This document shows, piece after piece, positions 5,198 to 11,172 of a stretch of DNA of 41,620 nucleotides. The notes under the pieces were generated by a model that searched no databases, was not told the origin of the DNA, and saw nothing but the letters and a program-made list of their open reading frames with translations. Both the position numbers and the translations under genes were made by a program. The DNA is taken from UHGV virus genome UHGV-0179596. One strand, 5' to 3'. Numbering within the stretch: the first letter of the stretch is position 1; every line of letters starts with the position of its first letter. The stretch comes from a virus.

Positions 5198-5566
5198 TCA
5201 GGCGGCCTTGATAGTCATATCATCTGAATCAAATATTCCTGATGTATCGATATCGGTAATTCTTATTCCTTCACTACCATCCATTGGAGGCCATCCTTCC
5301 TGACCATTTCCATCATTCCAGTCGAACTCACACACAACACCATATGCATTTAAGTCGCTTGAAATTGCTATAAGCAGAGCATGTTGCGCCAGCATGATTA
5401 ATACAGCATTTAATACAGAGCCGTGTTTATTGAGTCGGTATTCAGAGTCTGACCAGAAATTATTAATCTGGTGAAGTTTTTCCTCTGTCATTACGTCATG
5501 GTCAATTTCAATTTCTATTGATGCTTTCCAGTCGTAATCAATGATGTATTTTTTGATGTTTGACAT
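5198..5566 (-). CDS. ea10: Ea10-like protein
   Basis: 122-aa ORF at the lambda ea10 position between cIII and ral; same length as lambda Ea10. Confidence 0.75.
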   Translation of the reverse strand: MSNIKKYIIDYDWKASIEIEIDHDVMTEEKLHQINNFWSDSEYRLNKHGSVLNAVLIMLAQHALLIAISSDLNAYGVVCEFDWNDGNGQEGWPPMDGSEGIRITDIDTSGIFDSDDMTIKAA

Positions 5567-5748
5567 CTATTCATATCCTCATAGATAAAAAATCGCCCTC
5601 ACACTGGAGGGCAAAGAAGATTTCCAATAATCAGAACAAGTCGGCTCCTGTTTAGTTACGAGCGACATTGCTCCGTGTATTCACTCGTTGGAATGAATAC
5701 ACAGTGCAGTGTTTATTCTGTTATTTATGCCAAAAATAAAGGCCACTA

Positions 5749-5949
5749 TCAGGCAGCTTTGTTGTTCTGTTTACCAAGTTCTCTGGCAATCATTGCCGTC
5801 GTTCGTATTGCCCATTTATCGACATATTTCCCATCTTCCATTACAGGAAACATTTCTTCAGGCTTAACCATGCATTCCGATTGCAGCTTGCATCCATTGC
5901 ATCGTTTGAATTGTCCACACCATTGATTTGTATCAATAGTCGTAGTCAT
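5749..5949 (-). CDS. ral: Ral, restriction alleviation protein
   Basis: 66-aa ORF matching lambda Ral (MTTTIDTNQWCGQFKRCNGCKLQSECMVKPEEMFPVMEDGKYVDKW...). Confidence 0.9.
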   Translation of the reverse strand: MTTTIDTNQWCGQFKRCNGCKLQSECMVKPEEMFPVMEDGKYVDKWAIRTTAMIARELGKQNNKAA

Positions 5950-6019
5950 ACGGATAGTCCTGGTATTGTTCCATCACATCTTGAGGATGCTCTTCGAACT
6001 CTTCAAATTCTTCTTCCAT
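5933..6019 (-). CDS. Lambda orf28-like acidic peptide
   Basis: 28-codon ORF translated by hand: MEEEFEEFEEHPQDVMEQYQDYPYDYDY; overlaps ral start as in lambda. Confidence 0.55.
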   Translation of the reverse strand: MEEEFEEFEEHPQDVMEQYQDYPYDYDY

Positions 6020-6162
6020 ATATCACCTTAAATAGTGGATTGCGGTAGTAAAGATTGTGCCTGTCTTTTAACCACATCAGGCTCGGTGGTTCTCGTGTAC
6101 CCCTACAACGAGAAATCGGATAAACTCTATTCACCCCTACAGAGAGCAAAAGAGAAACGCCG

Positions 6163-6744
6163 ATGAACAACTCATGGTGGCAGGAACTAATGCATTTTTT
6201 CCTGCAAGGAATGACACTTAAACAGTTGATTCATATGCTAATCATCCTGATCATATTGATTATTGTTATGCCGGTAAGCGTAAAAGAATGGATAAACCTG
6301 CATAATCCAGAAATCCTTCCTCATTACTGGATGTATTACATCCTGTTGTTTTGCGTTAGCTATGTGCTTAACGGCGTTGTTAATTCCGCTTATCACGCTG
6401 TGACTGAAAGAATTGAGGTATTCGCTGCTCAGAAGCGCAAATCTAAAGAAGAAAAATATGTGCAAGATTTGTTTGATTCGTTAACTCTTGGAGAAAGAGC
6501 GTATTTGGCATTCGCTGTAGCCGCTAATAACCAGCTACAAACGGAAAAGGGCGCTCATGAATCAATTTCATTGCTCAAAAAAGGACTCCTCGTTCGAAGG
6601 CCTCCTGCTGTTGGATATCCTGATACCGACCGTTTCGTTATCCCTGAAAGCTATAGACATGAGTGCTACATTAGGTTTGCCGGGAAGGCAGACAGCCTTA
6701 TGGATGAACTTATCGCTCAGGATAAGCATGGCAAAAACAAGTAA
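6163..6744 (+). CDS. sieB: SieB superinfection exclusion protein
   Basis: 193-aa ORF matching lambda SieB by recall, with hydrophobic N-terminal region (LIHMLIILIILIIVMPV); opposite strand to the pL operon as in lambda. Confidence 0.9.
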   Translation: MNNSWWQELMHFFLQGMTLKQLIHMLIILIILIIVMPVSVKEWINLHNPEILPHYWMYYILLFCVSYVLNGVVNSAYHAVTERIEVFAAQKRKSKEEKYVQDLFDSLTLGERAYLAFAVAANNQLQTEKGAHESISLLKKGLLVRRPPAVGYPDTDRFVIPESYRHECYIRFAGKADSLMDELIAQDKHGKNK

Positions 6745-6760
6745 TTAGCAAATGAATTTA

Positions 6761-7033
6761 TCATCTCGCCGTCAGTTGTTTTGATTTCCGGTAGCCTGCC
6801 GCGTAAAGAGCTACGTTCGGAAGACAAGTTGAACCTTCATATTTTCTGGTCAACGTTGTCAGAGTTATCACTTCTGCTCTCATTGCTGGTTTGAGCTTGC
6901 ATTGCAAGACCACTCGTGAAGGGGTTGGCCTGTGTAGCTTGTCGGAGCTGATCGCCTCCTGACTTTGCAGATTTGCGCGACGAGCTCTACGGCGAGAAGC
7001 TGCGGTGCCTTTAAATTCTGTTTTTCTGGACAT
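6761..7033 (-). CDS. N: N-type transcription antiterminator (P22 gp24-like rather than lambda N)
   Basis: 90-aa reading from internal ATG at 7031-7033 preceded by SD GGGAGGA; arginine-rich motif GTAASRRRARRANLQ near N-terminus; C-terminus LPNVALYAAGYRKSKQLTAR resembles P22 gene 24 product from memory. Track ORF extends 24 codons further upstream. Confidence 0.8.
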   Translation of the reverse strand: MSRKTEFKGTAASRRRARRANLQSQEAISSDKLHRPTPSRVVLQCKLKPAMRAEVITLTTLTRKYEGSTCLPNVALYAAGYRKSKQLTAR

Positions 7034-7131
7034 GGATTCCTCCCGAATAAACTTTGGCGATGCAATCTCGAAGCTCCTCCTGAGACGGTTGCTTCGGCAT
7101 TGCATCCCACAGCTTATGTGGTTGGGTGATC

Positions 7132-7176
7132 TGGCTTTTCAGCCACGTAGTCGAGAGTCGACGTTGTTTAAAGAGC
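7132..7176 (-). promoter_or_regulatory. Candidate nutL (boxA GCTCTTTAA, boxB hairpin TGGC-TGAAAA-GCCA)
   Basis: On the minus strand a boxA-like GCTCTTTAA is followed about 20 nt later by a 4-bp GC stem with a UGAAAA loop, about 100 nt upstream of N; same architecture found at nutR. Confidence 0.5.
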
Positions 7177-7434
7177 CTGCCAGTCTGTTCCATTTGGCTT
7201 CCAGCGTCCTGCTGACGGTTAAATAGTACGATATGTACTTTACAAGATCAATACAATTTGTTGTAAGTTGGCGTGGTTTTTTATAACGCTTTGTATTTAA
7301 TAGTGTTGTTTTTTAGCGTGGATGTATTGCCTCGGCGATGTAAGGAGAGATCAGAATTGCGTGGTTTAGTGGGTTGCATCTATTTATTTTTCAATAAATA
7401 TAATTGGTTATGTGTTTTTAGGTGGGCGAACGTG
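7177..7434 (-). promoter_or_regulatory. pL / OL operator region (position-based)
   Basis: Non-coding AT-rich interval between the immunity-operon terminator and nutL; contains palindrome AGTACGATATGTACT and TACAA/TTGTA half-site repeats that recur in the cI-cro intergenic region. Operators not individually resolved. Confidence 0.45.
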
Positions 7435-7465
7435 AGGCAAAGAAAACCCGGCGCTGAGGCCGGGT
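7435..7465 (-). terminator. Intrinsic terminator closing the cI-orfA-orfB operon
   Basis: Minus-strand hairpin AACCCGGC-CTCAGC-GCCGGGTT followed by UUUUCUUUG, placed 5 nt after the orfB stop codon. Confidence 0.55.
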
Positions 7466-7469
7466 TGTA

Positions 7470-8222
7470 TTATGCTGCAAGTCTCTTAACCCAAGTCTCT
7501 CTTTTGGAGAATGGTAGAACTTGGCTTGATTCATGGAAGAGTAAGGAGAGTTGTTGCATTTGATCACCAATTGCTTCGCTGTCTATAACAACAAATCTGT
7601 TGTTATACTCCTCACTTGAAGCTTTAAGATCAATTAGTTTCCCAAGCAATGAGTAAGCACTATTCCAGCTTCCTCCGTGTTTCACGCTTGATGTAAAAAC
7701 GTATTTAGGTATGTCGGTTTTTATTGTTACAGGGACGGTAATTTGATGTCCACTCAAGCCATATACGTTTTCACGAAGAGAAAGTGCGTCTCTAAGCTCT
7801 GTGTGATATAGATAATCAATAACCATACTTTCAAACTTTTCAGCTTGAACTGGCTGATACCAGTCTAACGACAAAGTTGATGCGAGTATACCAGCTCTAA
7901 TTATGTTCGATGTAATCGCACCGACATCCTTTTCTGTTGCCCAAGCAATGATTTCTCCTCGAGCATTGAGTTCTGCGCCTTCTTTAAGCAGTAATTGTCG
8001 TATCTCATCAAGTCGTTTTTTGGTAAGCGAGATCCCTCTTGCCTCCATATTCATTAAGGCATCGCATCTGTCACTAACTAAATACCTACCATTGACTTCA
8101 CGGATAAAGGCACCGACATGCTCTCCATCATCACAGTAAGTGAATGGACTGATAATTCTCAAGGTCTTGCCTATTGGATGGCATTCGAAACCTAGTTGTG
8201 AGATCACTGTTGAGCACATCAT
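7470..8222 (-). CDS. Hypothetical protein, second gene of cassette at the rexB position
   Basis: 250-aa ORF with ATG start overlapping the upstream stop (ATGA at 8219-8222); terminator immediately downstream; no TM segments or catalytic motifs recognised by eye; AT-rich. Confidence 0.7.
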   Translation of the reverse strand: MMCSTVISQLGFECHPIGKTLRIISPFTYCDDGEHVGAFIREVNGRYLVSDRCDALMNMEARGISLTKKRLDEIRQLLLKEGAELNARGEIIAWATEKDVGAITSNIIRAGILASTLSLDWYQPVQAEKFESMVIDYLYHTELRDALSLRENVYGLSGHQITVPVTIKTDIPKYVFTSSVKHGGSWNSAYSLLGKLIDLKASSEEYNNRFVVIDSEAIGDQMQQLSLLFHESSQVLPFSKRETWVKRLAA

Positions 8223-8776
8223 ATTCCAAACCCCATTTGCCCCGACTCATCTTCAAGCGGTAAAGGTATTCTCCCAGAGTAAGTTATGTTCAGATGTTTA
8301 CAGAAGTAATTCCAATACCCTACCAGGTCATCTGGGTTTATGTCATCTTCGATTGGAAACGCTATTCTATCACTATAGTATCCAGCTTCTTCATAGTATA
8401 CATGGTAGTGAGCACCGTAAATGATATCTTGGTACTTCGGATGATCGACCTTGTAACTATTCGTGTGTTTGTCAAAGTGATAGGTATCTACCGCGAAAAC
8501 CCTCTTGTTATGATAGAAAGCAATAATATTTATTTTAGGGTAAGAAATCGGGTCATCAGGTTCTGAATCCTGATCTGGTTTCCATTTCAGTTCAAACTTT
8601 AGCCCTTGTATAGGTATACAATCCTCATCCAAGGGGATGATATGGGCTTGTAGCCACATATCAGAGCGACTTGGTTTCTGTTTCCATTTAACGCCAGAAA
8701 AGTTAACTATTTTTTTACAATAAAGTACTTTATCAACTTCTACTTGGCTTGGCTGATAATCATCTATTTTTGCCAA
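8219..8776 (-). CDS. Hypothetical protein, first gene of cassette at the rexA position
   Basis: 185-aa ORF starting 39 nt after cI stop; first in-frame start is TTG at 8774-8776 (next ATG at codon 40), so the true start is uncertain; aromatic/His-rich stretch HYHVYYEEAGYY; no family recognised. Confidence 0.65.
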   Translation of the reverse strand: MAKIDDYQPSQVEVDKVLYCKKIVNFSGVKWKQKPSRSDMWLQAHIIPLDEDCIPIQGLKFELKWKPDQDSEPDDPISYPKINIIAFYHNKRVFAVDTYHFDKHTNSYKVDHPKYQDIIYGAHYHVYYEEAGYYSDRIAFPIEDDINPDDLVGYWNYFCKHLNITYSGRIPLPLEDESGQMGFGI

Positions 8777-8815
8777 TGTTTACCGCCCTGTAAATTGTAG
8801 ATAAAAGTGGTTTCA

Positions 8816-9475
8816 TCACCCAAACGTCTCTTCAGGCCATTGGCTGGCGATAACTTTCCCCACAACGGAACAACTCTCATTGCATGGGATCATTGGGTAT
8901 TGTGGGTTTAGTGGCTGTAGAAACACCTGACCGCTATCCCTGATCAGTTTCTTGAAGGTAAATTCATCACCACCAAGTCTGGCTATGCAGAAATCGCCGG
9001 GCTCAACAGCTTGCTCAGGGTCAACCAGAATTAACATCCCGTCAGGAAAGCTGGGTTTGGAACCTGTTGGTGCGGTCATTGAGTTACCTTCAACCTCAAG
9101 CCAGAATGCAGAGTCACTGGCTTTTTTGGTTGTGCTTACCAATCTCTCCGCATCGCCTTTGGTAAAGGTTCTGAGTTCTGGAGAGAACATCCCAGCCTGA
9201 ACATGAGAAAAAACAGGGTACTCATATTGTTTTTTAACTGGGGCCGATGAGTATTCGCCAACAGGTGAAAATGTCCCGTCGTGGTTGAATGATATGTTAT
9301 CAATACCAAGGTATTTAAACACCACACCAATATCACTAAGAGATGGATGACGAGATCCGCGCAACCAGTGTCCAATCCCACCCTGCGTCATACCTAGCTC
9401 TTCGGCTAACTTCTCTTGAGTTATGCCGAGCTCTTTCATTCTGGATCTAGCCAGTTCATACCATTTCATTTTCAT
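8816..9475 (-). CDS. cI: CI repressor with lambda-type C-terminal autocleavage domain and non-lambda N-terminal HTH domain
   Basis: From [21 protein letters not shown] onward the sequence matches lambda cI to the C-terminus; N-terminal domain ([37 protein letters not shown]) differs. Start taken at MKMKW (ATG 9475, or 9469); track ORF begins 14 codons upstream. Confidence 0.92.
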
Positions 9476-9586
9476 GTCCTTATTATTACGCTCTGTACTG
9501 GAACCATCCATGCACAATGTGTATTTTTACTTGTATTCGCAAAGTACATATTGTATTTTTTTATTCGTGTTTACTATGGAGGGCAT
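9476..9586. promoter_or_regulatory. Divergent PRM/PR promoter and OR operator region (position-based)
   Basis: 111-bp AT-rich intergenic region between divergent cI and cro; contains TTGTA/TACA half-site repeats; individual operators not resolved. Confidence 0.6.
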
Positions 9587-9802
9587 ATGAGCAACCTACG
9601 AAAATATCGAGAGTCACTGAATATCTCTCAAACAACACTTGCTAAGGCAGTTGGATGCACACAGGGAGCTATCGGACATTGGGAATCTGGTCGTCGCTTC
9701 CCAGACCTTAAAACATGCCGTGCTCTTGTTGCGTGCCTAAACAAGTTAGGCGCAAAAGTCAGTCTTGATGACGTGTTCCCGCCGGAACACAAAGCCGCTT
9801 AA
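9587..9802 (+). CDS. cro: Cro-like repressor (XRE-type HTH)
   Basis: 71-aa reading from ATG 9587 with SD GGAGGG; HTH segment ISQTTLAKAVGCTQGAIGHWESG closely parallels the cI HTH (TQGGIGHW), implying shared operator specificity. Confidence 0.8.
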   Translation: MSNLRKYRESLNISQTTLAKAVGCTQGAIGHWESGRRFPDLKTCRALVACLNKLGAKVSLDDVFPPEHKAA

Positions 9803-9812
9803 TAAGCGGATC

Positions 9813-9857
9813 CGCTCTTTGTAACAACGGACATTCGTCCTACGTCGCTGAAAAGCG
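9813..9857 (+). promoter_or_regulatory. Candidate nutR (boxA CGCTCTTTGTAACAA, boxB hairpin TCGC-TGAAAA-GCGA)
   Basis: boxA-like CGCTCTTT just after cro stop, then about 20 nt later a 4-bp stem with UGAAAA loop; mirrors the nutL candidate in loop sequence and spacing. Confidence 0.5.
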
Positions 9858-9943
9858 AGTTCCAAGATATCTGACCAACTAAGGCCATATGCGTTTCCAC
9901 GCATACCTTTCAACTAACTATTCACTATTGGAAATCTTAAGAA

Positions 9944-10240
9944 ATGGAAAGAACAAGTTACAGCAAACTATCACAGCGTGACGTTGATCGCGCAGAAACA
10001 GATTTACTTATCAATCTGTCAGCTATTACCCAGCGCGGTCTGGCAAAGATGATTGGCTGTCATGAATCGAAGATAAGCAGAACGGACTGGAGATTTATTG
10101 CTTCGGTCTTGTGTGCTTTCGGAATGGCATCAGACATCAGTCCGATTAGCAGGGCTTTTAAGTATGCGCTTGATGGACTCACCAATAAAAAACGCCCGGC
10201 GGCAACCGAGCGTTCTGAACAAATCCAGATGGAATTCTGA
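9944..10240 (+). CDS. cII: CII transcriptional activator (hybrid: non-lambda N-terminus, lambda C-terminus)
   Basis: 98-aa ORF; C-terminal LTNKKRPAATERSEQIQMEF is identical to the lambda cII C-terminus as I remember it; N-terminal two thirds differ. Confidence 0.85.
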   Translation: MERTSYSKLSQRDVDRAETDLLINLSAITQRGLAKMIGCHESKISRTDWRFIASVLCAFGMASDISPISRAFKYALDGLTNKKRPAATERSEQIQMEF

Positions 10241-10272
10241 GGTCATTACTGGATCAATCCACAGGAGTCATT

Positions 10273-11172
10273 ATGACAAATACAGCAAAAATACTCAACT
10301 TCTGCAGAGGTAACTTTGCCAAACAGGAGCGTAATGTGGCAGATCTCGATGATGGTTACGCCAGACTATCAAATATGCTGCTTGAGGCTTATTCAGGCGC
10401 AGATCTGACCAAGCGACAGTTTAAAGTGCTGCTTGCCATTCTGCGTAAAACCTATGGATGGAATAAACCAATGGACAGAATCACCGATTCTCAACTTAGC
10501 GAGATTACAAAGTTACCCGTCAAACGGTGCAATGAAGCCAAGTTAGAACTCGTCAGAATGAATATTATCAAGCAGCAAGGCGGCATGTTTGGACCAAATA
10601 AAAACATCTCAGAATGGTGTATCCCTCAAAACGAGGGAAAATCCCCTAAAACGAGGGATAAAACATCCCTCAAATTGGGGGATTGCTATCCCTCAAAACA
10701 GGGGGACACAAAAGACACTATTACAAAAGAAAAAAGAAAAGATTATTCGTCAGAGAATTCTGGCGAATCCTCTGACCAGCCAGAAAACGACCTTTCTGTG
10801 GTGAAACCGGATGCTGCAATTCAGAGCGGCAGCAAGTGGGGGACAGCAGAAGACCTGACCGCCGCAGAATGGATGTTTGACATGGTGAAGACCATCGCGC
10901 CATCAGCCAGAAAACCGAATTTTGCAGGGTGGGCTAACGATATCCGCCTGATGCGTGAACGTGACGGACGTAACCATCGCGACATGTGTGTACTGTTCCG
11001 CTGGGCATGCCAGGACAACTTCTGGTCCGGTAACGTGCTGAGCCCGGCCAAACTCCGCGACAAGTGGACCCAGCTCGAAATCAACCGTAACAAGCAACAG
11101 GCAGGTGTGACAGCCTGCAAACCAAAACTCGACCTGACAAACACTGACTGGATTTACGGGGTGGATTTATGA
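10273..11172 (+). CDS. O: Replication initiator O
   Basis: 299-aa ORF matching lambda O; contains the ori iterons internally. Confidence 0.95.
   Translation: MTNTAKILNFCRGNFAKQERNVADLDDGYARLSNMLLEAYSGADLTKRQFKVLLAILRKTYGWNKPMDRITDSQLSEITKLPVKRCNEAKLELVRMNIIKQQGGMFGPNKNISEWCIPQNEGKSPKTRDKTSLKLGDCYPSKQGDTKDTITKEKRKDYSSENSGESSDQPENDLSVVKPDAAIQSGSKWGTAEDLTAAEWMFDMVKTIAPSARKPNFAGWANDIRLMRERDGRNHRDMCVLFRWACQDNFWSGNVLSPAKLRDKWTQLEINRNKQQAGVTACKPKLDLTNTDWIYGVDL
10621..10750 (+). repeat. ori-lambda: four iterons plus AT-rich region inside O
   Basis: Four imperfect direct repeats of about 19 bp (ATCCCTCAAAACGAGGGA-like) at roughly 10621-10706, followed by an A-rich tract (ACAAAAGAAAAAAGAAAAGATTATT). 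Confidence 0.85.

What the first reader, a model, noticed from the sequence alone, without database searches (positions are those of the whole stretch)
7470..8776. Unassigned two-gene cassette in the rexA-rexB slot downstream of cI
Two co-oriented ORFs (185 aa then 250 aa) begin 39 nt after the cI stop, overlap each other by ATGA (8219-8222), and are closed by a hairpin plus U-tract terminator (about 7435-7465) just before pL/nutL/N. That is the layout of the lambda cI-rexA-rexB operon, which is transcribed from PRM in lysogens and excludes other phages. Neither protein resembles RexA (279 aa) or RexB (144 aa, polytopic membrane) as I remember them; I see no TM segments, P-loop or other catalytic signature, and the DNA is visibly AT-rich relative to the flanking lambda-like sequence. 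The first ORF has only a TTG as first in-frame start. Position, operon architecture and composition together suggest a horizontally acquired, lysogen-expressed defence or exclusion module of unknown mechanism.
Basis: partly seen in the sequence, partly recalled or inferred. Interest (0 to 1): 0.85.

Follow-up and report, generated by a model that had tools for sequence, protein, structure and literature searches.

The report
Prophage two-gene candidate defence cassette
Two uncharacterised genes sit directly behind the prophage repressor gene, in the slot where phage lambda keeps its rexAB exclusion genes. They form a conserved, horizontally swapped two-gene module that is probably an untested anti-phage system carried by E. 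coli CFT073 and Nissle 1917.

Summary
On the minus strand, cI is followed after 39 nt by gene A (185 aa, TTG start, 8219-8776). Gene B (250 aa, 7470-8222) overlaps A by ATGA, and a strong hairpin terminator (7445-7466) follows before pL/N. Neither protein is RexA or RexB, and neither has a TM segment or P-loop.

- **A:** a small family whose predicted fold has no known relative. It has an invariant R..D..HxN..GxHxH constellation and only sub-threshold similarity to DUF6978.
- **B:** a DUF1828 protein. Its N-domain is secretion-chaperone/YbjN-like and its C-domain is restriction-endonuclease-like but lacks the canonical catalytic motif.
- **The pair:** strictly adjacent in all 18 lineages sampled, from E. 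coli to Aeromonas and a Pseudomonas phage. It sits behind a repressor in 13 of them, although the repressors differ.
- **The slot:** phages with the same cI carry other cargo between exactly the same two boundaries.
- **Database link:** both proteins hit only PADLOC's untested candidate PDC-M24.

Best reading: a lysogen-expressed two-protein anti-phage module and a divergent branch of PDC-M24. The defence function and the mechanism are both untested.

The parts
8816..9517 (-). cI repressor (HTH_3 + Peptidase_S24). The start is probably the ATG at 9511. It is the first gene of the inferred PRM operon.
   Evidence: ORF. (Pfam: Peptidase_S24 E = 1e-28, HTH_3 E = 2e-10). (annotated as cI, 696 nt, in phage PhiR57_1).
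8777..8815 (-). 39-nt cI-A spacer. It has no terminator and carries a weak SD-like AGGGCGG 6 nt before the TTG.
   Evidence: sequence. (no terminator here; promoter-like hits are not above the shuffle expectation).
8219..8776 (-). Gene A, 185 aa, TTG start, acidic and soluble. It belongs to a small family (phrog_2017) with sub-threshold similarity to DUF6978 and PDC-M24A. Invariant residues are K22 W31 R92 D97 H104 N106 G121 H123 H125 F158 P173. The C-terminal tail (175-185) is conserved but predicted disordered.
7470..8222 (-). Gene B, 250 aa, ATG start overlapping A's stop codon (ATGA). It is a DUF1828 protein (phrog_1960) with a full-length match to PDC-M24B. The N-domain (about 1-120) is secretion-chaperone/YbjN-like. 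The C-domain (about 130-250) has a restriction-endonuclease-like alpha-beta-beta-beta-alpha-beta core.
7437..7466 (-). Rho-independent terminator closing the operon: stem-loop 7466-7445 plus a T-rich tail. It is also the left recombination boundary of the cargo slot.
   Evidence: scan. (-16.8 kcal/mol, z = -3.7). (homology with other-cargo phages ends at 7466/7467). (a similar hairpin follows B in most lineages).
7467..8813 (.). The exchangeable cargo segment: everything between the terminator stem and the cI stop codon. Phages with the same flanks carry unrelated genes here.
   Evidence: blastn breakpoints against L026, L027 and L028. (their annotations).
7220..7305 (-). Approximate oL/pL operator region. 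It is downstream of the terminator and so outside the cassette.
   Evidence: Inferred by homology only. Three 'putative operator' features in AP005153 lie in the 93% identical flank that aligns to window 6761-7467. Coordinates are good to about 6 nt.
6761..7105 (-). Antiterminator N. RefSeq annotates the 90-aa form, 6761-7033. It marks the far side of the slot.
   Evidence: Pfam N_peptide E = 1e-32..

Best explanation
A and B form a mobile two-gene cargo operon that rides behind the prophage repressor gene. In the lysogen it is probably transcribed from PRM as a cI-A-B message that ends at the hairpin at 7445-7466 (inferred).

A is translated weakly from a non-ATG start codon that is conserved across lineages. 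B is translated by coupling through the ATGA overlap. The two proteins most likely work as one complex. This is inferred from their strict adjacency, the coupling, and correlated divergence.

The most likely role is protecting the lysogen against other phages, by superinfection exclusion or abortive infection, as a divergent branch of PADLOC candidate PDC-M24.

The working mechanism is speculative. B's chaperone-like N-domain holds a peptide, possibly A's conserved disordered tail or a phage protein. A phage cue then releases or activates an effector. The effector would be either B's endonuclease-like C-domain or A's His/Asp/Asn/Arg site, and it would stop phage replication.
For: **Architecture in the window**
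- The layout is confirmed.

**Conservation of the pair**
- A-like and B-like genes are adjacent in all 18 lineages sampled, almost always with an ATGA overlap.
- A co-oriented repressor lies directly upstream, or one gene away, in 13 of 18 lineages. The repressors are of different types: S24-type and short HTH-type.
- A has a GTG or TTG start in 10 of 11 loci of the close clade. B always starts with ATG.
- A terminator follows B in most lineages.
- Both genes are under purifying selection, and A-B pairwise distances correlate at r = 0.93.

**The slot is a cargo hotspot**
- Its boundaries are exact and the cargo varies between phages with the same flanks.
- Published work places rexAB and bstA in the same slot (PMC8585504).

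**Link to a defence candidate**
- B's family hits only PDC-M24B: 9 of 9 members, best E = 3e-13, matched over the full length.
- A's family hits only PDC-M24A, weakly.
- PDC-M24 was found embedded in BREX/DISARM/type I RM loci.

**Structure**

**A possible phenotype**
- Nissle 1917 prophage 3 carries the cassette as EcN_1291/1292.
- The Nissle authors suspected an unidentified prophage factor behind that strain's complete resistance to lambda and stx phages (PMC5987069).
Against: - There is no experimental evidence of defence, toxicity, expression or A-B binding, either for this cassette or for PDC-M24 ('145 untested candidates').
- The canonical PD-(D/E)XK residues are not conserved in B. Only S157, G158 and D198 are invariant in the C-domain.
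- Both proteins are acidic, which is unusual for DNA-binding nucleases.
- A's match to PDC-M24A and DUF6978 is partial and below threshold (18-22 bits).
- Four lineages show no recognisable repressor upstream (L018, L025, L029, L031); in a fifth (L021) the contigs are too short to tell.
Confidence: 0.5

Rival explanations
1. A toxin-antitoxin or addiction-type module. One protein is toxic and the other neutralises it. The selected role would be stabilising the prophage or slot in the genome rather than blocking other phages.
For: - It is a two-gene overlapping operon with translational coupling and a conserved weak start codon on the first gene.
- The two genes are strictly co-inherited.
- The defective, IS-truncated Nissle prophage has retained the cassette.
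Against: - Neither protein has an HTH, RHH or AbrB-type antitoxin DNA-binding domain, or any known toxin domain.
- The sizes (185 and 250 aa) are large for type II pairs.
- The operon has no promoter of its own above chance and depends on the repressor's promoter.
- No homologue occurs on any of 72,556 plasmids, where addiction modules thrive.
- This reading is not exclusive of defence, since many TA modules are Abi systems.
Confidence: 0.15
2. A modulator of the prophage's own lysis-lysogeny decision or induction. It would act on the repressor, the operators or the SOS pathway rather than on foreign phages.
For: - The tie to repressor genes of several types is unusually tight: 13 of 18 lineages.
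- From my own knowledge, not checked here: lambda RexA has been reported to influence the bistable switch.
Against: - The same cassette works behind unrelated repressors and operators (S24-type, short HTH-type, a different cI in Stx1_121427). This argues against specific contacts with any one immunity system.
- Phages with the same cI do without it and carry other cargo.
- Neither protein has a DNA-binding motif.
Confidence: 0.1
3. A host-fitness or virulence moron unrelated to phage conflict, for example an advantage in the gut or urinary tract.
For: - It is present, at 99% identity or more, in 241 of 5426 complete E. coli genomes, including CFT073, ABU 83972, Nissle 1917 and APEC strains.
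- bstA, in the same slot, was first linked to virulence phenotypes.
Against: - Both proteins are cytosolic, with no signal peptide or TM segment.
- Homologues occur in ecologically unrelated hosts: Xenorhabdus, Pantoea, Aeromonas, Thorsellia and a Pseudomonas phage.
- The only database link is to a defence candidate.
Confidence: 0.1
4. An anti-defence (counter-immunity) pair that the phage uses against host restriction or other defences.
For: - Lambdoid early-left regions carry anti-restriction genes. ral lies nearby.
- Both proteins are acidic.
Against: - The cassette lies upstream of pL, behind cI, and is closed by a terminator. It would therefore be expressed in the lysogen rather than early in lytic infection.
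- Its relatives are embedded within host BREX/DISARM/RM loci.
Confidence: 0.05

Closest known systems
Phage lambda cI-rexA-rexB operon (Rex exclusion system)
   Same: - The genomic slot and layout are the same: two co-oriented genes directly after cI, closed by a terminator before pL/N on the same strand as cI and N.
- The slot is a recognised mosaic hotspot (PMC8585504).
   Different: - There is no sequence similarity to RexA or RexB in Pfam, PADLOC or PHROGs.
- There is no membrane protein. RexB is polytopic, whereas A and B have no TM segment.
- Gene sizes are different, and the genes overlap by ATGA.
PADLOC phage-defence candidate PDC-M24 (Payne et al. 2024 preprint, 10.1101/2024.01.29.577857; cassette CAS_00098, FAM_00129>>FAM_00065)
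   Same: - It is a two-gene cassette in the same order.
- B matches the PDC-M24B models end to end (2-249 against 4-254 of 256, E = 5e-10). All 9 diverse B relatives match.
- The only PADLOC family hit by A's relatives is the cognate partner, PDC-M24A.
   Different: - A's match is partial and weak: residues 104-163 only, 18 bits, against a 148-position model. That is probably below PADLOC's calling criteria.
- A carries roughly 40 extra residues.
- PDC-M24 was defined from genes embedded in BREX/DISARM/type I RM loci, not from prophage immunity regions.
- PDC-M24 itself has never been tested.
BstA (Salmonella prophage BTP1) and other repressor-linked prophage defences
   Same: It is encoded directly downstream of the prophage repressor, presumably shares the repressor's promoter, and is followed by its own Rho-independent terminator. 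The position behind diverse repressors is conserved.
   Different: - BstA is a single protein. Here two proteins are strictly paired.
- There is no sequence similarity; no shared Pfam or PADLOC family appears.
- No self-immunity element of the aba type was looked for.
PD-(D/E)XK (restriction-endonuclease-like) effector domains of Can2/Card1, NucC and type II restriction enzymes
   Different: - The catalytic D...(D/E)xK triad is not present or conserved.
- There is no CARF or other nucleotide-sensor domain.
- The protein is acidic overall.
Type III secretion chaperone / YbjN-like / DUF2170 fold
   Different: - The similarity is in fold only, at 8-13% identity.
- B has an invariant acidic cluster (D31 D32 D51 E90) and two invariant cysteines. 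I did not check whether those families share these residues.
- Here the domain is fused to a nuclease-like domain.

Membership tests
Lambda RexAB | RexA homologue (Pfam/PADLOC RexA model) | tested here: not met
   Neither A nor B has a RexA match at E <= 0.1 in Pfam or PADLOC, or at E <= 0.01 in PHROGs.
Lambda RexAB | RexB: small polytopic inner-membrane protein | tested here: not met
   The maximum Kyte-Doolittle 19-residue hydropathy is 0.45 for A and 1.19 for B. There is no TM segment and no RexB match.
Lambda RexAB | Two genes co-oriented with and directly downstream of cI, ending at a terminator before pL | tested here: met
   This is a positional feature only.
PADLOC candidate PDC-M24 | B component matches the PDC-M24B HMM over its full length | tested here: met
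   PDLC04540: E = 4.7e-10, residues 2-249 against profile positions 4-254 of 256. All 9 diverse relatives match PDLC04539, best E = 2.7e-13.
PADLOC candidate PDC-M24 | A component matches the PDC-M24A HMM | tested here: inconclusive
   E = 4.8e-4, 18 bits, covering only residues 104-163 against profile positions 79-134 of 148. In the scan of 16 relatives the three PDC-M24A models were matched by 3, 3 and 1 members at E = 2e-4 to 7e-3. No other PADLOC family is hit, so the cognate pairing supports distant homology.
PADLOC candidate PDC-M24 | Gene order A>>B, co-oriented and adjacent | tested here: met
   Cassette definition FAM_00129>>FAM_00065.
PADLOC candidate PDC-M24 | Found embedded in BREX, DISARM or type I RM loci (the basis of the candidate) | tested here: not met
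   In the window and in all 18 sampled lineages the context is a prophage immunity region or unclear. None of the loci examined has flanking RM or BREX genes.
PADLOC candidate PDC-M24 | Demonstrated anti-phage activity | not testable with these tools
   The source paper describes '145 untested phage defence candidates'.
Pfam DUF1828 (PF08861) | Score above the gathering threshold | tested here: met
   B scores 33.5 bits against a cut-off of 22, over residues 26-110. Eight of 9 diverse relatives match.
Pfam DUF1829 (PF08862) | The C-terminal domain matches the model | tested here: inconclusive
   There is no match for the window protein. Only 1 of 9 relatives matches, at E = 0.049.
Pfam DUF6978 (PF22398) | Score above the gathering threshold (29.6 bits) | tested here: not met
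   A scores 22 bits, E = 2e-4, covering only the C-terminal 53 of 133 profile positions. Six of 10 relatives give the same sub-threshold match at 15-23 bits. Distant relationship is plausible; membership is not shown.
PD-(D/E)XK nucleases | Restriction-endonuclease-like alpha-beta-beta-beta-alpha-beta core fold | tested here: met
PD-(D/E)XK nucleases | Conserved catalytic D ... (D/E)xK residues on strands beta-2 and beta-3 | tested here: not met
   The expected positions read S157-G158-H159 and K173-Y-V-F-T-S. Across 12 lineages the only invariant polar residues in the C-domain are S157 and D198.
Type II toxin-antitoxin modules | An antitoxin with a DNA-binding domain, or a recognised toxin family | tested here: not met
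   Neither protein matches a Pfam or NCBIfam toxin, antitoxin or HTH/RHH family.

The most novel reading that the evidence does not exclude
A and B form a mechanistically new, repressor-coupled two-protein anti-phage system. The A subunit has a fold with no known relative and a conserved HxN...GxHxH active site. B is a chaperone-like sensor fused to a degenerate endonuclease fold. The system would be the unidentified prophage-3 factor behind E. coli Nissle 1917's complete resistance to lambda and Stx phages.
Probability: 0.25. Interest if true: 0.75.

Novelty: new variant of a known kind. Interest (0 to 1): 0.55.

Why it matters
If it is a working defence system, it would add a characterised example to the cI-N 'Rex slot'. 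It would also give the first functional data for PADLOC candidate PDC-M24 and for the DUF1828 and DUF6978-like families.

It could also explain part of the phage resistance of medically relevant strains. The cassette is present in 241 of 5426 complete E. coli genomes, including CFT073, ABU 83972 and the probiotic Nissle 1917. That bears on phage therapy and on the probiotic's safety with respect to Stx-phage conversion.

The exact boundaries of the slot, from the cI stop codon to the terminator stem, also give a simple recipe for mining further cargo from lambdoid prophages.

Tried and rejected
**Searches that found nothing useful**
- PDB sequence searches with profiles of A, B and B's C-domain: nothing below E = 0.2.
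- Foldseek on the A model against BFVD: best E = 0.04, TM 0.36 or less.
- The AFDB50 fold library was unavailable.
- NCBIfam: no family for A or B.
- The genome-contig scan returned only 8 close relatives.
- A profile search with the broad A alignment did not reach true DUF6978 members.
- An exhaustive HMMER search of 1.84 billion representative proteins found only 20 A relatives.
- Plasmids: no B homologue.
- Rfam on window 5500-10500: nothing.
- Literature: nothing on the function of DUF1828, DUF6978 or PDC-M24, or on the RefSeq accessions. I could not find a paper describing the PhiR57_1/PhiR63_2 phages.

**Ideas considered and dropped**
- An independent promoter for A. The promoter-like hits are no more frequent than in shuffles (5 found, 5.9 expected), and the nearest one would start transcription inside A's start codon.
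- A canonical nuclease active site in B. The motif is not conserved.
- The NYN-domain cargo in phage E212's slot as supporting evidence. Its closest PADLOC relative, HEC-09, gave no protection when tested.
Full report
**1. The observation**

All structural claims check out.
- On the minus strand, cI (8816-9517; HTH_3 + Peptidase_S24) is followed after 39 nt by ORF A (8219-8776, 185 aa, TTG start). ORF B (7470-8222, 250 aa) starts with an ATG that overlaps A's stop codon as ATGA.
- A hairpin with an 8-bp stem (6 G-C pairs) at 7466-7445, followed by a T-rich tail, comes directly after B. As RNA it folds at -16.8 kcal/mol, z = -3.7 against shuffles.
- N lies at 6761-7105 (Pfam N_peptide, E = 1e-32).
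- The three oL operators annotated in the 93% identical flank of AP005153 map to about 7220-7305.
- The cassette is 39.6% GC against 50.3% for the window, the lowest 0.5 percentile of same-length windows. Neither protein has a TM segment or Walker A motif.
- The TTG start is genuine: 18 homologues of 183-187 aa all begin M-A-K at that codon.
- Both ORFs are real genes. dN is 0.09-0.30 with saturated dS against relatives from Salmonella, Yersinia, Providencia and Xenorhabdus.

**2. What the window is**

It is a lambdoid phage or prophage.
- The immunity region is 100% identical to phages ev207, ev017, PhiR57_1 and PhiR63_2.
- In PhiR57_1 the gene order is exo-bet-gam-kil-cIII-ea10-ral, sieB, N, two hypothetical genes, cI, cro, cII, O, P.
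- The cassette occurs once each, always chromosomal and at 99% identity or more, in 241 of 5426 complete E. coli genomes. These include CFT073, ABU 83972, ATCC 11775 and Nissle 1917.
- RefSeq names B WP_000968518.1 ('DUF1828 domain-containing protein') and A WP_001062368.1 ('hypothetical protein').

**3. The two proteins**

Gene A:
- It belongs to phrog_2017, of unknown function.
- It matches Pfam DUF6978 and PADLOC PDC-M24A only below threshold, and only over residues 104-164. Relatives give the same sub-threshold match.
- An exhaustive HMMER search of 1.84 billion representative proteins found only 20 relatives.
- Across these relatives K22, W31, R92, D97, N106, G121, H123, H125, F158 and P173 are invariant, and H104 is nearly so. 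This is an enzyme-like constellation that I could not assign to any family.
- Its last 11 residues are predicted disordered, yet S178, G179, Q180 and G182 are invariant in the close family.

Gene B:
- It belongs to phrog_1960, passes Pfam's threshold for DUF1828, and matches PDC-M24B end to end.
- Its model (pLDDT 83) has two domains.
- The canonical D...(D/E)xK residues are absent. Only S157, G158 and D198 are invariant in the C-domain. The N-domain carries an invariant acidic cluster, D31, D32, D51 and E90.
- Both proteins are acidic.

**4. The pair is an evolutionary unit**

I sampled 18 lineages:
- two E. coli immunity types;
- Salmonella, Klebsiella, Aeromonas, Izhakiella, Yersinia, Providencia, Xenorhabdus, Pantoea and Thorsellia;
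- an unnamed NCBI genome assembly (L020);
- five metagenomic lineages;
- a Pseudomonas D3-like phage.

Findings across these lineages:
- In every one, an A-like gene directly precedes a B-like gene, nearly always with the ATGA overlap.
- In the Pseudomonas phage record the A homologue is not annotated.
- A's start codon is GTG or TTG in 10 of 11 loci of the close clade. B's is always ATG. This points to selection for low, coupled expression.
- Pairwise divergence of A and B correlates at r = 0.93.

**5. Position**

- In 13 of 18 lineages a co-oriented repressor gene lies directly upstream. In three of these, one small gene intervenes: DUF3024 in Izhakiella and Providencia, and a 216-aa gene in the Pseudomonas phage.
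- The repressors are not all homologous. They include S24-type cI proteins of 210-262 aa, short HTH repressors of 128-131 aa, and a different 234-aa cI in phage Stx1_121427 that carries the identical cassette.
- A terminator follows B in most lineages. The AACCCGGCC...GCGCCGGGTT hairpin recurs in several genera.
- Against phages 2G7b, a Sakai-type Stx1 phage and E212, whose flanks are 93-99% identical, homology stops at window 7466/7467 and resumes at 8814-8818. The exchangeable unit is therefore exactly the stretch from the cI stop codon to the terminator stem.
- Those phages carry unrelated cargo there: a 283-aa unknown protein, a 173-aa unknown protein, and a 285-aa NYN-domain protein.
- Published work already describes the cI-N interval as a mosaic hotspot holding rexAB and bstA, and cI as one of the most transcribed prophage genes in lysogens (PMC8585504).

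**6. Link to defence**

- PDC-M24 is one of 145 untested candidates. They were defined because their genes were found embedded in BREX, DISARM or type I RM loci (10.1101/2024.01.29.577857).
- B's family hits only PDC-M24B, and A's family hits only PDC-M24A. This cognate pairing makes distant homology of the whole cassette likely, even though A's score alone is weak.
- This gives two independent lines of association, the prophage Rex slot and defence-locus embedding, but no experiment.
- No B homologue is on any of 72,556 plasmids.
- Only five distinct phages in 50,697 records carry the cassette, plus the one distant Pseudomonas phage.

**7. A possible phenotype**

- The Nissle 1917 study found that a cloned prophage-3 gene, 'pr', reduced lambda and stx phage plating about 200-fold. 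The strain itself is fully resistant, and the authors proposed that other prophage-3 genes contribute (PMC5987069).
- Their gene table lists two hypothetical genes, EcN_1291 and EcN_1292, between sieB and cI. These are B and A, and they are absent from strains SE15, IAI1 and MG1655.
- Their 'pr' primers map to window 9898-10267, which is the cII homologue and not cI.
- The cassette was never tested.

**8. Interpretation**

The best-supported reading is a lysogen-expressed, horizontally exchanged two-protein module that protects the lysogen from other phages. It would be a divergent, prophage-borne branch of PDC-M24.

What is shown:
- the gene structure and the terminator;
- conservation of the pair and of its position;
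- the cargo exchange and its boundaries;
- the fold assignments, on predicted models.

What is inferred:
- transcription from PRM;
- formation of an A-B complex;
- the defence function.

What is speculative:
- that B's chaperone-like domain binds A's tail or a phage protein;
- that the effector is B's endonuclease-like domain or A's His/Asp site.

The rival readings cannot be excluded without experiments. They are an addiction module, a modulator of the lysogeny switch, a host-fitness moron and an anti-defence pair.

**9. Novelty and score**

- The kind of thing, defence-type cargo behind a prophage repressor, is well known, and the family has been flagged computationally.
- The proteins are unrelated to any characterised defence protein, and A's fold has no known relative.
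- I rate it a new variant of a known kind, with moderate interest (0.55). It is highly testable in standard strains, but it is one of hundreds of untested candidates.

Noticed in passing
window 9898-10267 (ORF 9944-10240, + strand): The cloning primers for the Nissle 1917 'phage repressor (pr)' gene (EcN_1294, PMC5987069) map here. This is the cII homologue, not cI. The reported 200-fold drop in lambda/stx plating from the pUC19 clone may therefore reflect cII overexpression rather than repressor immunity.
   Followed up: partly
window 7466/7467 and 8814-8818: Homology with phages that carry different cargo (2G7b, a Sakai-type Stx1 phage, E212) breaks exactly at the first base of the terminator stem and at the cI stop codon. 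The conserved hairpin appears to act as a recombination boundary for cargo exchange.
   Followed up: yes
L033 (Stx1a-converting phage Stx1_121427) 1652-3753: The identical A-B cassette sits behind a different 234-aa cI and before a different 127-aa N. The cassette has therefore moved between E. coli lambdoid phages of different immunity, including a Shiga-toxin phage.
   Followed up: partly
L032 (Pseudomonas phage VB_PaD_phPA-G) 2420-3004: This is an unannotated A homologue with the AID, HxN, HxH and GQMGF motifs. It overlaps the B-like CDS0029 by 4 nt and lies downstream of a CI-like repressor and a 216-aa gene. The record misses this gene.
   Followed up: partly
window 8774-8776, and the A start codons in L002-L031: A's start codon is GTG or TTG in 10 of 11 loci of the close clade, whereas B always uses ATG. 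A non-ATG start is a conserved feature rather than an annotation problem.
   Followed up: yes
window 8219-8251 (A residues 175-185): A's C-terminal tail is predicted disordered (pLDDT below 50), yet S178, G179, Q180 and G182 are invariant in the close family. An SGQ motif persists in most distant relatives. It may be a docking peptide.
   Followed up: no
L012 4044-4385; L014 4053-4394: In Izhakiella and Providencia prophages a 113-aa DUF3024 gene is inserted between the S24 repressor and gene A. The slot can hold stacked cargo.
   Followed up: partly
L028 (phage E212) 1673-2530: A phage with the same immunity carries a 285-aa NYN-domain protein in the slot (Pfam NYN E = 7e-9, weak PADLOC HEC-09 match). 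HEC-09 itself gave no protection when tested by Payne et al.
   Followed up: partly
window 6163-6744 (+ strand): A SieB-family superinfection-exclusion gene (Pfam SieB E = 2.5e-22; phrog_1301) lies on the opposite strand just beyond N. The region therefore holds two candidate exclusion functions.
   Followed up: no
L035 (E. coli Nissle 1917) 493-2098: In Nissle 1917 the prophage at icd is truncated by ISEc52 between an integrase remnant and sieB, which removes the int-ral arm. The sieB-N-B-A-cI block is nevertheless intact.
   Followed up: partly
L019 (Actinomadura rugatobispora contig, 518 nt): A 518-nt contig in an actinomycete assembly encodes the end of A and the start of B at 82% identity to the E. 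coli protein. This is most likely enterobacterial contamination of that assembly.
   Followed up: no
window 9511-9517: The mechanical ORF for cI starts at a TTG at 9517. Deposited annotations use the ATG two codons downstream (696-nt gene).
   Followed up: no
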